This document shows positions 28,640 through 35,129 of a stretch of DNA of 64,000 nucleotides, in pieces (position 1 is the first letter of the stretch; each line of letters begins with the position of its first letter). This DNA comes from an uncultured Gammaproteobacteria bacterium (lineage in GTDB: Bacteria > Patescibacteriota > Patescibacteriia > 2-01-FULL-39-33). The notes beneath the pieces were generated by a model. It ran no database searches. It saw only the letters and a program-made list of their open reading frames with translations, and was not told where the DNA came from. The stretch covers positions 109,393-173,392 of the forward strand of contig CAZEKG010000002.1 of the NCBI GenBank assembly GCA_964512625.1. The letters run 5' to 3'. The translations under genes and the position numbers were made by a program.

Positions 28640-30775
28640 ATGCCCCGCAAACAACCATTAGAAAAAATTAGGAATATAGGCATTATCGCCCATATCGATG
28701 CTGGTAAAACGACTGTTTCCGAACGCGTTCTTTTTTATACCGGTAAGAAGCATAAGATCGGCGAAGTCCATGAAGGTGAAGCTACTATGGATTGGATGGA
28801 ACAGGAAAGAGAAAGAGGTATTACCATCACTTCTGCGGCTACGACTTGTACTTGGAAAAATGCTGATTGGTTGGGTGGCGGCGAAATCCAAATAAATTTA
28901 ATTGATACTCCGGGTCACGTTGATTTTACAGCTGAAGTAGAACGTTCTCTTCGAGTCCTCGACGGCGGCGTTATTGTTTTTGACGGCGTAGCCGGCGTTG
29001 AACCTCAATCGGAAACAGTTTGGAGACAATCTGAAAAATATCATGTGCCTAAGATCGGCTTCGTCAATAAGATGGATAGAATGGGAGCGGATTTTTATAA
29101 GGACTTAGATTCTATTCATGAAAGATTGACTTCTCATGCTCATCCAATCCAACTTCCAGTCGGAGCGGCTGAGACTTTCAGAGGTATTATTGATCTTCTT
29201 GAGATGAAGGCGGAAATTTATCTTGATGATCTTGGAACAAAGTGGGAGATTACTGATGTTCCGGAAGATGAAATAGAAAGAGCGAAAAAATACCGAGCTG
29301 AGTTAGTTGAGGCGATTGTTGAAAATGATGAAGCTTTAATGGATAGATACTTGGCAGGTGAAGAGATCTCTATTATTGATTTAAAAAAGACTTTAAGAAA
29401 GGCAGTTATCGCTAATAAGATTGTGCCTATTATTTGTGGCAGTGCTCTAAAGAATAAAGGCGTCCAATTCTTGCTTGATGCTGTATCTGAGTATTTGCCT
29501 TCACCTTTAGATGTTCTACCTCCAGTAGCTCATGATGTTGATGATGAGACTAAAGAGATCATGGTTAAAGTTACTGATGATGCTCCTATGGCCGGTTTAG
29601 CTTTTAAGATTGCTACGGACCCCTTTGTCGGTAAATTGGTTTTCTTTAGAGTTTATAGAGGTGTTTTAAAGTCAGGTTCTTATATCTTAAATAACTCCAA
29701 TGGAAATAAGGAAAGAATCGGAAGAATTCTCAGGATGCATTCCAATTCTCGAGAGGAAATAGATGAGGTTTACGCCGGAGAAATTGCTGCGTTAGTCGGT
29801 TTTAGGGATGTAACTACCGGAGATACGCTTTCTGATCCTAATACTCCTATATTGTTAGAGAAGATCGTTTTCCCTGAGCCAGTTATTGATATCGCTGTTG
29901 AGCCAAAGACTAAAGCTGATCAAGAAAAAATGGGCTTAGCTTTATCGAAGTTGGCTGAAGAAGATCCTACTTTTAGAGTTAAGACTGATGAAGAAAGTGG
30001 CCAAACTATTATTTCCGGTATGGGTGAGCTTCACCTGGATATTATCGTCGATAGAATGAGACGGGAATTTAAAGTCGAAGCTAATATCGGCGCTCCTCAG
30101 GTTGCCTATCGAGAAACTATTCGTAAGACAGCAGAAGCTGAAGGTAAGTATGTTAGACAATCAGGCGGTCGAGGTCAATATGGCCATTGCTGGATTAGAA
30201 TCGAACCGCTGGAGCCTGGCAAAGGCTTTGAATTCGCCGAAGAAATCAAGGGCGGCGCTATTCCTCGAGAATATATCAAGCCGATTGAAAAAGGTATTAA
30301 AGAGGCTTTGACTAGGGGTGTAGTAGCCGGATATTCTTTGATTGATGTTAAGGCAACTGTTTATGATGGATCATACCATGACGTCGATTCATCTGAAGCA
30401 GCTTTTAAAATCGCCGGTTCCTTGGCTTTGCAGGAAGCTGTTAAGAAAGCAGCTCCAGTTATTCTTGAGCCGATTATGAAAGTCGAAGTTACGACCCCTG
30501 AGCAGTTCATGGGTGACGTTATTGGTGATCTTAACTCTCGAAGAGCTTTGATTAATAAAATGGAAGATAGAGGTTCTGGCGCGGCTTTAACTAAGGTTAT
30601 TACTGCTAATGTTCCTCTTTCTGAGATGTTCGGCTATGCGACTCAATTACGATCTATGACTCAGGGTCGAGCTAATTACAGCATGGAATTCTTGCATTAC
30701 CTTGATGTGCCGAAGAATGTGGAAGCCCAAATCGTAGAAGGTAGAAAGGGTACGGAAAAGAGAATCCAGTCTTAA
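28640..30775 (+). CDS. fusA: Elongation factor G
   Basis: The G-domain motifs are [24 protein letters not shown] and NKMDR, followed by the domains II-V signatures. Confidence 0.9.
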
Positions 30776-30796
30776 TTTCTATATTTTAGAACATAA

Positions 30797-30835
30797 AAGA
30801 ACAGCAACTGAAATCGGTTGCTGTTCTTTATTTAA
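30797..30835 (+). terminator. Rho-independent terminator after fusA
   Basis: The hairpin is AAGAACAGCAAC-TGAAATCG-GTTGCTGTTCTT, followed by a T-rich run. Confidence 0.6.
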
Positions 30836-30838
30836 ATT

Positions 30839-30866
30839 AAAAAGGCGGCAACTTGTAGTTGCCGCC
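30839..30866 (-). terminator. Rho-independent terminator (minus strand) for the convergent porin-like gene.
   Basis: The hairpin GGCGGCAACT-TGT-AGTTGCCGCC is followed, on the minus strand, by TTTTT (the complement of the A-run at 30839-30843). Confidence 0.55.
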
Positions 30867-30887
30867 CGTACTCAGTCCCGTTCTTCT

Positions 30888-31916
30888 TTAGAATTTGAAC
30901 TGAGCTTTTGCTAAAAGCCGGTTGTCCTCCGGCCCATCAACTACGGTCTCGTAGTCGAGGGTAAGGGAGCACCGGTCTTTTTTATCCATAAGACGGACGC
31001 CGTTGGTCCAGTAGACGCGCTTGGCGTCGCTAGTTTGGATTTCAACGGTTTCCGTCTTGAACTGACCGCTCTCTCGGTCGAACTTCGTGTTAGTCTCCTC
31101 ATAGGTCTTGGAGATGTCCCCAAGGTAGTCTACCTGGGAGTGAAGCTCGAGCCAAGGAGTGGCCCGGTAGGCGACCTGGACATAGCCGCCGAACTGGTCG
31201 CTAACTTCGATGCTCTCGTATCTTGTATAGCAGAGAGCGCCCATTAAGTTCCAGTGATTGTCTGGCTGCCACGCAGTGCTCACGCCGAAGCGTTGGAAAT
31301 CTTGGCAGAGCTGCGTGTAGCCGGCGATGTTTCCTGATCCTGGTTTGCCCTTTTCCCCAAATTGCTGCCTCAGCATGGCAGACAATTCAATCCTGTCGAA
31401 GGAGTGATCGTCGTCGAAGGCCAGACCGGAACGACCCGTTACATCGAAAACCAGGCTGACGCTTTCCGATAGCTGTCCCTCGACTTGCGCGCCGTAGGCA
31501 TAGCAGGGGAAGGTCATACTACTCGGATAAGCGACAGTTCTTAAGCTGTAAGCGTCAGGAGTGCTGTTGCCTGCAGCCAGGAATATTCTCCCCGCTTTCA
31601 GGCTCCAGTTATCATTTACCTTATACTTCACCCAGACTTCTCGAAGCCAATTAGAGTCGATTTGTCCGTCGTTGAACGGCAGATTGACTTGGGTGGAGGC
31701 CTCCCATCGCTCACTGCTCCAATCAGCTTTCAATCGGAGATTGTTCCATTGGAACTCGTCCGATGAAGTGGTGGTTTCCGCGTAGCTGGCTTGAGTCCAG
31801 CCACTTATTTTCAAAGTCGGTTCCTGACCGACCTTAACATCTTGCAGTTCGGCCGGCGCCGAGTGGGTGAAGCCGAAAAAGGTGGCGAGGACGATGGTGA
31901 CAAAAAACTTCTTCAT
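30888..31916 (-). CDS. Secreted beta-barrel outer-membrane-protein-like (porin-like) protein. Its GC content is markedly higher than the surrounding genome.
   Basis: It has a signal peptide (MKKFFVTIVLATFFGFTHSAPA) and alternating amphipathic beta-strand patterns (WSLKAGRIFLAAG, YVQVAYRATPWLELHS, SLTLDYETVV). The C-terminus is aromatic (KAQFKF), which is typical of OMP barrels. GC is roughly 50-55% against a high-30s background. Confidence 0.45.
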   Translation of the reverse strand: MKKFFVTIVLATFFGFTHSAPAELQDVKVGQEPTLKISGWTQASYAETTTSSDEFQWNNLRLKADWSSERWEASTQVNLPFNDGQIDSNWLREVWVKYKVNDNWSLKAGRIFLAAGNSTPDAYSLRTVAYPSSMTFPCYAYGAQVEGQLSESVSLVFDVTGRSGLAFDDDHSFDRIELSAMLRQQFGEKGKPGSGNIAGYTQLCQDFQRFGVSTAWQPDNHWNLMGALCYTRYESIEVSDQFGGYVQVAYRATPWLELHSQVDYLGDISKTYEETNTKFDRESGQFKTETVEIQTSDAKRVYWTNGVRLMDKKDRCSLTLDYETVVDGPEDNRLLAKAQFKF

Positions 31917-33160
31917 GAGAAACTCCTTTTCTGCTTTTGGCAGTCAAGGAAAGGCTTCTTCACAAGAAGTTTTAGTTCCTCGACTGCCGGCGGACCTCTT
32001 GGACTCGCATTTTTGAACCAACGCAGTTCAGATGGAATCCAAAATCTCTCTTCAAAAACCACTCTTACGAACCTCCAGTCCGGTTGAACCGAATGTTCGA
32101 ATTCGATGACGGGGTGGTCGCTGCCGACCGATCCTTTCTTTGTATTTCCGTCGTCATCTTTTTTGTCAACTGAAACTAAAGTCGTAACCACAGCGGCATT
32201 CGACTTCAGTATTACCAGTAGTCTAGCGATACTTGGTGTCAGGCTAATTAGCGAAATAGTGAAACAAATCAGCGCGGGTCTAGTAACCCGTCCGCCAGAT
32301 TGCCTAACTCTTTCCATGGCCTGATCGAACCTGACTAGAGGTTCTTCGGCTTGGAGCCAAAGAGCGGCTTCCTCTTCAGAGGTAAGCCAGAAGTTGCCAC
32401 TTCTCTTCTTTATATACTGACTTCTCAGCTTATAGTACCTTTTATTTTTGGCACCTTTTTCACTGATGGTTAGTATGCCTATGGGCCCGAAGAGGCTGGC
32501 GAGTATCAATCTAGACCAGCCTAGAAGGAACTCCTCTCGAACTTTTTCACCCTTAAACCTCTTGTTTAGAAGTAGGATGAAGATGCTTGGCGCTGTCATG
32601 AGCATGTACCATTTCAGCAACCAAAGAAAAAAGTTGAGCAGATCTTTCGATGATAGAGATATCTGCTCCCCATTTTCCTTTAGTACTTGGTCTTGGGCCT
32701 CTATGATACTGCTATTGAATCGCATTCCTGCTTCCTGTCGACGAGCGGCTTCATCGGTAGAATAAAGTTGCTTATAGTACTTTGGCGCCTCTTCGGCAAC
32801 TTTCCAGTTCCTAACGAAACATTCTCTAGCGAGATCGATAACTACTCGATCACTTGACTTTCCTGTTAGTATGACTGGAAGATTTTGCTTTAGAATAACC
32901 AAGCGATATTGAATGCGTTGCGCCTCTAGCGGTGTTAGAGTATTTGCCTCAGATTTTTTCTGGGCTTCCAGTAGTAGGGAGTTCATTTGTTCCTGCGCAG
33001 CTAGGCATTCTTGGCTACTGCAAAAAGATTTCTCTTTTTGCCATTTTTGACTTACCCAACTCCAGTCTGCGAAGACTAGAATAGTAACCACTATCGCCAC
33101 CCAACTCAGAATTACCTGAGCGAGAGGCTTTGGCTGGTCATAACTTTGGTAGTATGACAT
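31913..33160 (-). CDS. Hypothetical multi-pass membrane protein. It is GC-rich and overlaps the porin-like gene by 4 nt, so the two are co-transcribed.
   Basis: An N-terminal TM helix (VILSWVAIVVTILVF) and internal TM helices are present, with no recognisable catalytic motif. It is upstream in a 2-gene minus-strand operon and has elevated GC. Confidence 0.4.
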   Translation of the reverse strand: MSYYQSYDQPKPLAQVILSWVAIVVTILVFADWSWVSQKWQKEKSFCSSQECLAAQEQMNSLLLEAQKKSEANTLTPLEAQRIQYRLVILKQNLPVILTGKSSDRVVIDLARECFVRNWKVAEEAPKYYKQLYSTDEAARRQEAGMRFNSSIIEAQDQVLKENGEQISLSSKDLLNFFLWLLKWYMLMTAPSIFILLLNKRFKGEKVREEFLLGWSRLILASLFGPIGILTISEKGAKNKRYYKLRSQYIKKRSGNFWLTSEEEAALWLQAEEPLVRFDQAMERVRQSGGRVTRPALICFTISLISLTPSIARLLVILKSNAAVVTTLVSVDKKDDDGNTKKGSVGSDHPVIEFEHSVQPDWRFVRVVFEERFWIPSELRWFKNASPRGPPAVEELKLLVKKPFLDCQKQKRSFS

Positions 33161-33341
33161 AACTCGCCTCTCTTTCTGAGTTGTTAAAGTTCAGTTTAGT
33201 ATCCTAGGAAATTCCCAAGATAACCTCATATTTTAGCAGATTGTTGGTTACTTGTCAAGTTACCTATTCTTTTTGTGATATATATTTGCCATAATCCATT
33301 TTTTATTATAAAATAACCTAAAATCGCTAACATTTAATTTT

Positions 33342-33716
33342 ATGTTTACCGGAATAGGTAAGATAACCAATTTAATTAAAAAAACAGGAGATAAGGCGAT
33401 AATTGTTGATGCTAATGGAGAACCGACTTACGTAATAATGACCGTTTTTGACTACGAAAGATTGGTTTTGGGGCATTCAGAGGTAAGGGGCTTGACAGAA
33501 GAAGAACTTTTAGATAAAATAAACCGTGACATTGCAATTTGGAAAGGCAGTCAGGAATTGGAAAATTTACCCATTGATCAATACGATTTCTCTAAAAACT
33601 TCGATTTTGGAAGTCAGTATGGTAAATTTAGCCAAGATAAGCCAAATTATGGCTACGAACCGGAAGTGGTAGATGACGAAGAAAGTGAAAGATTCTACTT
33701 TGAAACCGTCGAATAA
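33342..33716 (+). CDS. Hypothetical small acidic protein. The N-terminal ~45 aa resemble a Phd/YefM-type antitoxin fold.
   Basis: The segment KAIIVDANGEPTYVIMTVFDYERLV resembles the YefM/Phd core (xPVIITxNGxPxAVLMSxEDYExL). The C-terminal half is acidic (YEPEVVDDEESERFYFE). No partner toxin lies nearby. Confidence 0.3.
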   Translation: MFTGIGKITNLIKKTGDKAIIVDANGEPTYVIMTVFDYERLVLGHSEVRGLTEEELLDKINRDIAIWKGSQELENLPIDQYDFSKNFDFGSQYGKFSQDKPNYGYEPEVVDDEESERFYFETVE

Positions 33717-33941: not shown

Positions 33942-35129
33942 ATGGCAGAACAATTTGACAGAAGCAAGCCGCATCTAAATGTCGGCACCATCGGTCACGT
34001 AGATCACGGAAAAACCACTTTAACCGCTGCTATCCTTCAGGTTCTTGGCGCTAGAGGCGGTAAGGCCCAAAACAAGTCAGTCGATCAGATCGACGCTGCT
34101 CCGGAAGAAAAAGAGAGAGGTATCACTATTGCTACCGCTCACGTCGAATATGAGACTGAAAAGAGACATTATGCTCACGTTGACTGTCCTGGTCACGCTG
34201 ACTACATTAAAAACATGATTACTGGTGCTGCTCAAATGGATGGCGCCATTATCGTTGTTGCTGCTACTGATGGTCCTATGCCTCAAACCAGAGAACACAT
34301 TCTCTTGGCTAGACAAGTAGGTGTACCATACATCGTTGTCTTTATTAACAAAGTTGATCAAGTTGATGATCCTTCACTTATCGATCTAGTTGAAGAAGAA
34401 GTCAAAGATCTTTTGAAGAAATATGAATTCCCTGGAGACACAACCCCTATTATCAGAGGTTCTGCCTTAAAAGCTTTGGAAAATCCAACTGGTCCTGAGG
34501 GTGATTGTATTATACAGCTTATGGATGCTTTGGACACATATATTCCTGAACCTCAACGCGCTACCGATTTGCCTTTCATGATGCCGATTGAAGATGTTTT
34601 CTCCATTGAAGGCCGAGGTACAGTAGTTACTGGAAGAATTGAAAGAGGTATTATTAAATTGAGCGAAGAAGTTGAAATCGTCGGACTTAAGCCGACTATG
34701 AAATCAGTTGTTACTGGTATCGAAATGTTTAACAAGAATCTTAACGAAGGTATTTGCGGTGATAACGCTGGTATCCTTTTAAGAGGTATCAAGAAAGAAG
34801 ATGTTGAAAGAGGCCAAGTTCTTGCTAAACCGGGAACAATCACTCCTCACAGCGAGTTTGAAGCCGAGGTTTACATCTTATCTAAGGAAGAAGGCGGAAG
34901 ACACAAACCTTTCTTTAAGGGTTATAAGCCACAATTCTACATTAGAACTACCGATGTAACTGGTGAAATTGAATTGCCAGAAGGCGTCCAGATGGTTACT
35001 CCTGGAGATACAGTAACCTTGACTATTAAACTTGGTAAGAGCGTAGCTATGGAAGATAAGATGAAATTCTCTATTAGAGAAGGCGGACATACGGTTGGAG
35101 CTGGTGTAGTTACTAAGATTATTAAATAA
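33942..35129 (+). CDS. tuf: Elongation factor Tu
   Basis: It begins [27 protein letters not shown] and carries DCPGHADY and NKVD. It is very highly conserved. The ORF-track start at 33897 is an in-frame upstream extension. Confidence 0.9.

What the first reader, a model, noticed from the sequence alone, without database searches (positions are those of the whole stretch)
30780..33340. GC-rich two-gene minus-strand operon (membrane protein plus beta-barrel OMP-like protein) inserted between fusA and tuf
The str operon (rpsL-rpsG-fusA-tuf) is interrupted. After the fusA terminator lie two overlapping minus-strand genes whose GC content (about 50-55%) and codon usage differ sharply from the high-30s % background. 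They have their own bidirectional terminators and an AT-rich promoter region at 33160-33340.

The downstream product has a signal peptide, amphipathic beta-strand periodicity and a C-terminal aromatic residue (…AQFKF). These are hallmarks of outer-membrane beta-barrels. Such proteins are unexpected in a CPR-type cell that is presumed to be monoderm.

Either the protein came by horizontal transfer from a diderm donor, perhaps the host, or the organism has an unappreciated outer-membrane-like structure.
Basis: partly seen in the sequence, partly recalled or inferred. Interest (0 to 1): 0.7.

Follow-up and report, generated by a model that had tools for sequence, protein, structure and literature searches.

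The report
Mobile porin cassette in a CPR bacterium
A bacterium of a group thought to have only one membrane carries a laterally acquired two-gene cassette, a classic outer-membrane-type porin plus a novel membrane partner, and the porin's known relatives sit in the same group of bacteria rather than in two-membrane donors.

Summary
Two translationally coupled minus-strand genes, A (31913-33160, 415 aa) and B (30888-31916, 342 aa), interrupt rpsL-rpsG-fusA-[small gene]-tuf. B is the strongest compositional outlier in the window (GC3 0.65 against 0.36).

The "diderm donor" idea is not supported. B belongs to a family of at least 150 cluster representatives. Every named member is a Patescibacteria (CPR) MAG, apart from one labelled only "bacterium". 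The A+B pair recurs in at least two other CPR genomes. In 25 representatives the barrel is fused to an N-terminal membrane domain.

The closest B clade is GC-rich in several AT-richer CPR genomes. Its codon usage resembles that of higher-GC CPR, so transfer within CPR is likely.

In 63 related metagenomic loci the fusA-to-small-gene gap has a median of 135 bp and variable cargo. None carries A or B. The cassette is therefore an insertion at a hot spot.

How a porin works in a cell reported to lack an outer membrane is unresolved. My best guess is a tethered channel placed in a host's outer membrane.

The parts
28640..30775 (+). fusA (EF-G), the native gene upstream of the insertion
   Evidence: ORF. 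It is 81-84 % identical to EF-G in the closest metagenomic relatives. Its codon usage is native, r = 0.83.
30796..30829 (.). fusA terminator hairpin. It reads as a terminator on both strands.
   Evidence: 15-pair stem, inverted repeat I2.
30843..30867 (-). Intrinsic terminator of the A-B operon
   Evidence: 11-pair stem with 7 GC pairs, followed by TTTTTAATTTA on the minus strand, 20 nt after B's stop codon.
30888..31916 (-). Gene B: a secreted porin-type beta-barrel. Signal peptide is residues 1-20 and the C-terminus is ...AQFKF.
31923..31928 (-). Shine-Dalgarno AAGGAG for B, inside the 3' end of A. The A stop and the B start overlap as ATGA at 31913-31916.
   Evidence: Read directly from the sequence.
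31913..33160 (-). Gene A: a polytopic membrane protein with about four hydrophobic segments (residues 14-33, 178-198, 211-230, 296-320). It has no known family and is the conserved partner of B.
   Evidence: Hydropathy. No Pfam, NCBIfam, PHROG, PADLOC or PDB match. Homologous to the ORF directly upstream of B homologues in L003 (BLASTP 3e-36), and to the ORF upstream of B in L087 and the N-terminal half of P0012 (alignment A4 and HMM search).
33230..33258 (-). Promoter-like site for the A-B operon: TTGACA, 17 nt, TG-n-TAAAAT
   Evidence: 11 of 12 matches with an extended -10, about 70 nt upstream of A's ATG, in a stretch of 32-35 % GC.
33342..33716 (+). o124: a conserved lineage-specific small gene of the str operon. 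It marks the native downstream edge of the insertion site.
   Evidence: 168 relatives in metagenomes. It lies between fusA and tuf in the loci long enough to show it. Composition is native.
33942..35129 (+). tuf (EF-Tu), native
   Evidence: 84-87 % identical to tuf of related loci.

Best explanation
What it is. This is a 2.4-kb, self-contained accessory operon with its own promoter, coupled translation and terminator. It was inserted by lateral transfer into a recombination hot spot between fusA and the next native gene of a Patescibacteria (CPR) genome.

The two genes:
- B encodes a Sec-exported, single-chain porin of the OprP/general-porin fold.
- A encodes a polytopic cytoplasmic-membrane protein that belongs to no described family.
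- The two form a conserved functional pair. In other lineages the barrel is made as one polypeptide with an N-terminal membrane domain.

Origin. The donor was most likely another Patescibacterium of higher GC content, not a diderm bacterium.

How it most likely works (inferred). B is exported through Sec and its signal peptide is removed. It folds as a diffusion pore in a lipid barrier outside the cell's own cytoplasmic membrane. A stays in the cytoplasmic membrane and assembles, holds or gates B.

Which barrier. CPR cells imaged so far lack an outer membrane and BAM-type machinery, and the cassette is patchy and mobile in the way host-interaction genes are. I therefore favour the outer membrane of a Gram-negative host at the episymbiotic contact, where the pore would give access to host periplasmic solutes. 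I put about 35-40 % on this step.

Alternative. A porin-bearing outer layer of the CPR cell itself, analogous to the Thermotoga toga, is about 20-25 %.
For: Shown in the window:
- Gene structure, signals and compositional outlier status.

Shown for B:
- Porin_O_P match above threshold, and 6 of 30 family members also match.
- AF2 pLDDT 90.7 with an N-terminal helix plus 18 DSSP strand segments.

Shown for the family:
- 150 representatives at E < 1e-3, of which 95 are below 1e-10.
- 89 of 94 stand-alone members have an N-terminal hydrophobic signal.
- 114 of 130 end in an aromatic residue.

Shown for the A-B coupling:
- A 4-bp overlap in the window.
- The same upstream partner in L003 (3e-36) and L087.
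- An A+B read-through protein, P0012.
- 25 of 150 representatives have a membrane domain fused to the barrel, mostly with an AxA-type site before the barrel.

Shown for CPR residence:
- Named members are Buchananbacteria (two), Paceibacterota and 'Patescibacteria group' (two).
- All contexts are small-genome housekeeping neighbourhoods.
- In the GTDB scan only the two Buchananbacteria hits were real.

Shown for transfer within CPR:
- B GC3 is 0.65-0.71 in the window, L001, L087, L003 and L105, against host values of 0.30-0.53.
- More distant members in L102, L002, L100 and L005 match their hosts.
- The codon usage of the GC-rich B genes correlates best with L005-type higher-GC loci, r = 0.42-0.59.

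Shown for the insertion hot spot:
- In 63 related loci the fusA-to-o124 gap has a median of 135 bp, and 16 loci have 600 bp or more.
- The closest relatives carry unrelated cargo there, and no locus has an A or B HMM hit.

From the literature:
- Groundwater CPR cells lack an outer membrane and attach to Gram-negative hosts (PMC7906910).
- CPR lack TonB and PilQ (PMC6744442).
- Porins are reported as lost in the Chloroflexi/CPR clade (bioRxiv 10.1101/2021.05.31.446380).

From my own knowledge:
Against: - No experiment or expression data exist. The structure is a prediction from a 30-sequence alignment.
- The target membrane is pure inference. Nothing here shows delivery to a host.
- A conserved C-terminal beta-signal normally implies BAM, which I could not search for in the whole genomes.
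- Only six family members carry a taxon name. The others are unlabelled metagenomic contigs judged by gene context.
Its topology is ambiguous, with positive charges on both sides of the TM2-TM3 hairpin.
- Homology between A and the N-domains of the roughly 550-aa fused forms is weak (hhalign probability 47 %, E 2e-4, 51 columns).
- A's GC3 (0.45) is far below B's (0.65) within one cassette. A single recent transfer does not explain this.
- Read-level support for the junctions cannot be checked.
Confidence: 0.6

Rival explanations
1. Own outer layer. Some Patescibacteria have a second, porin-containing barrier, either lipidic or largely proteinaceous like the Thermotoga toga. B is its pore, and A is the anchor that ties it to the cytoplasmic membrane.
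For: - An anchor gene next to a porin gene parallels Thermotoga ompA1 (TM0477) and ompB (TM0476) (PMC3387000).
- The fused membrane-domain-plus-barrel forms fit a tether.
- The C-terminal beta-signal is conserved in most members.
- More distant family members have native composition, so the family is old within CPR.
- CPR cells show periodic outer layers of 3.2-3.8 nm and 10 nm (PMC7906910).
Against: - Cryo-TEM finds no outer membrane on CPR cells.
- TonB and PilQ are reported absent, and porins and SLH domains are reported lost in the Chloroflexi/CPR clade.
- The family is rare (150 representatives among 1.84 billion), patchy and laterally mobile. It is absent from all 80 loci of the window's relatives. 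A core envelope component should be vertical and near-universal within a lineage.
- B's codon usage is not adapted to its host, which argues against a very abundant structural protein.
- A has no SLH domain and no coiled-coil family match.
Confidence: 0.22
2. The cassette was picked up recently from a diderm bacterium, perhaps the host. It is a passenger, or it is used without a CPR-specific history.
For: - The porin fold and beta-signal are hallmarks of diderm outer membranes.
- GC and codon usage are foreign.
- The family is ultimately a branch of the diderm porin superfamily (Porin_O_P match).
Against: - The best homologues (36-45 % identity) are in Buchananbacteria, Paceibacterota and other Patescibacteria MAGs.
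- No diderm member was found in the GTDB motif scans.
- Partner gene A is also found only next to B homologues on CPR-type contigs.
- The operon has a host-like AT-rich promoter, a strong Shine-Dalgarno sequence and intact ORFs.
Confidence: 0.08
3. Assembly or binning artefact. A GC-rich fragment from another organism was stitched into a CPR contig.
For: - The compositional step is sharp at the B end.
- MAG assemblies can be chimeric.
- The exact proteins occur on one contig only.
Against: - Native genes flank both sides on one strand-consistent operon.
- The junctions fall in intergenic DNA with matching terminator and promoter elements.
- The same family shows the same GC excess inside at least four independent CPR assemblies from different projects: L001, L087, L003 and L105.
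- The site is independently variable in relatives.
Confidence: 0.04
4. Secreted pore-forming weapon. B is released to permeabilise and kill prey or competitors rather than to feed through a stable channel. A is its immunity or export factor.
For: - Distribution is patchy and mobile, and the gene sits at a hot spot with other small accessory cargo.
- Some CPR are predatory (my own knowledge; the lipocone paper PMC12419801 discusses patescibacterial prey-breaching proteins).
Against: - The fold is a classical monomeric porin. The segment between strands 5 and 6, by analogy with the L3 constriction loop of general porins, carries the family's most conserved motif. It is not an oligomerising beta-pore-forming toxin fold.
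- There are no toxin or immunity family hits.
- Fusion of an immunity protein to its toxin would be unusual.
Confidence: 0.06

Closest known systems
OprP/OprO phosphate-selective porins and the general porins OmpF/OmpC/OmpU/PorB (Pfam PF07396 Porin_O_P and the Gram-negative porin superfamily)
   Same: - Sec signal peptide and a single-chain antiparallel barrel of about 320 mature residues.
- A conserved segment between strands 5 and 6, positioned like the L3 constriction loop of general porins.
- A C-terminal aromatic beta-signal.
   Different: - Sequence identity is only 10-16 %.
- The Pfam match covers only residues 82-162.
- The host lineage is reported to have no outer membrane and no BAM.
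- The gene travels with, or is fused to, a polytopic alpha-helical membrane protein that classical porins lack.
- The OprP arginine ladder was not examined.
Thermotoga maritima toga pair OmpA1/Omp-alpha (anchor, TM0477) and OmpB/Omp-beta (porin, TM0476)
   Same: Adjacent genes for a membrane-linked anchor and a porin in a Terrabacteria lineage with an atypical envelope (PMC3387000).
   Different: - Omp-alpha is an SLH plus coiled-coil rod.
- Gene A has no SLH match and has about four transmembrane segments.
- There is no detectable sequence relationship.
- The toga genes are core and syntenic in Thermotogales, whereas this cassette is patchy and mobile.
OmpM-type SLH-porin fusions of diderm Terrabacteria (for example Veillonella OmpM1, PDB 8bym)
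   Different: - The attachment module here is a hydrophobic membrane domain, not an SLH domain binding modified peptidoglycan.
- OmpM is reported lost in the CPR/Chloroflexi clade.
Neisseria PorB translocation into target-cell membranes
   Different: - PorB is first assembled in the producer's own outer membrane by BAM.
- Its targets are eukaryotic membranes.
- No partner gene like A is involved.

Membership tests
Porin_O_P / general bacterial porin superfamily | Significant match to the family profile (PF07396, gathering score 20.9 bits) | tested here: met
   22.6 bits, E 7.3e-5. The match covers only residues 82-162 of B, against profile positions 60-145 of 370. 6 of 30 homologues also match at E < 0.01. 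Marginal but above threshold.
Porin_O_P / general bacterial porin superfamily | Single-chain porin-size (16-18 strand) antiparallel beta-barrel fold | tested here: met
Porin_O_P / general bacterial porin superfamily | N-terminal Sec signal peptide and C-terminal aromatic beta-signal (hydrophobic at -3 and -5, Phe at -1) | tested here: met
   B starts MKKFFVTIVLATFFGFTHSA and ends AKAQFKF. In the family, 89 of 94 members have the signal, 114 of 130 have an aromatic end, and 88 of 130 have the full alternating pattern.
Porin_O_P / general bacterial porin superfamily | Resides in the outer membrane of a diderm cell and is assembled by BamA/Omp85 | not testable with these tools
   Only 64 kb of the genome is available, and no Omp85 was found among the window proteins scanned. 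The literature reports no outer membrane on CPR cells, and the absence of TonB and PilQ in CPR. Whole-genome searches of cassette carriers were not possible.
Porin_O_P / general bacterial porin superfamily | Trimeric assembly and anion/phosphate selectivity (arginine ladder of OprP) | not tested
   No multimer model or residue-level superposition was available. The conserved R61, R110, H259 and D263 were not mapped onto the pore.
Thermotoga-type anchor + porin pair (Omp-alpha / Omp-beta) | The anchor has an SLH domain and a long coiled coil | tested here: not met
   Gene A has no Pfam or NCBIfam match at E <= 1. It has about four hydrophobic segments. Only the adjacency of a porin gene and a membrane-partner gene is shared.
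OmpM (SLH-porin fusion) | N-terminal SLH domain fused to the barrel | tested here: not met
Cyc2-type fused cytochrome-porin | CXXCH haem-binding motif ahead of the barrel | tested here: not met
   0 of 157 family proteins contain CXXCH.
Integrase-borne genomic island, prophage or defence island | Integrase/recombinase, tRNA or att flank, and phage or defence gene content | tested here: not met
   - No recombinase ORF lies between fusA and tuf.
- The nearest tRNAs are at 60.4 kb.
- PHROGs and PADLOC gave no hits.
- Viral-contig scans were negative.
- Only short imperfect direct repeats bracket the cassette.
- One homologue, in L105, does sit 1 kb from an integrase.

The most novel reading that the evidence does not exclude
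Patescibacteria own a lineage-specific, BAM-independent beta-barrel system. A porin is made together with, or fused to, a dedicated cytoplasmic-membrane partner, protein A, that assembles or tethers it. The barrel sits either in the outer membrane of the Gram-negative host, forming a feeding conduit at the episymbiotic junction, or in a so-far unrecognised second barrier of the CPR cell. Either reading would put single-chain porins into the biology of a 'monoderm' radiation and would define a new kind of barrel-partner protein.
Probability: 0.3. Interest if true: 0.9.

Novelty: new variant of a known kind. Interest (0 to 1): 0.62.

Why it matters
Single-chain porins are regarded as a signature of outer membranes in diderm bacteria, mitochondria and plastids. 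CPR/Patescibacteria are treated as monoderm. Comparative studies state that porins were lost in their clade.

This work finds a porin family that lives in CPR genomes, moves between them, and is genetically welded to an undescribed membrane protein. That gives a concrete, clonable handle on two open questions:
- How do ultrasmall episymbionts extract metabolites from their hosts?
- Does any part of the radiation keep, or rebuild, a second barrier?

It also matters for the debate on transitions between diderm and monoderm envelopes in Terrabacteria.

On a smaller scale, the intergenic site after fusA is a recurrent landing pad for foreign, often GC-rich, genes in this lineage.

Tried and rejected
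- Word-indexed homologue searches for A, B and the B alignment returned essentially only the query. The family appeared only in the exhaustive HMMER scan.
- Single-sequence AlphaFold was useless, with pLDDT 30.
- The exact-sequence contig look-up of B and of ribosomal protein S12 found nothing.
- The PPPFLLET motif scan of GTDB representatives found no family member.
- The afdb50 fold library was unavailable.
- The Cyc2 porin-cytochrome idea was rejected because no CXXCH motif is present.
- A phage, defence-system or toxin-antitoxin origin was rejected.
- PDB sequence searches of A and B gave only noise.
- An HMM built from four A sequences found no A-like gene near the stand-alone B genes in L001, L005 or L105. 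It did not reach the N-domains of the fused forms. Profile-profile comparison gave only a weak hit on the TM hairpin.
- My own error: I translated tuf one base out of frame. This produced a false impression that the window's EF-Tu was only 35-50 % identical to relatives. The correct frame gives 84-87 %, so there is no tuf anomaly.
- Hot-spot cargo genes of relatives are unrelated to A, to B and to the window's other GC-rich ORFs.
- Literature searches found no description of a CPR porin family.
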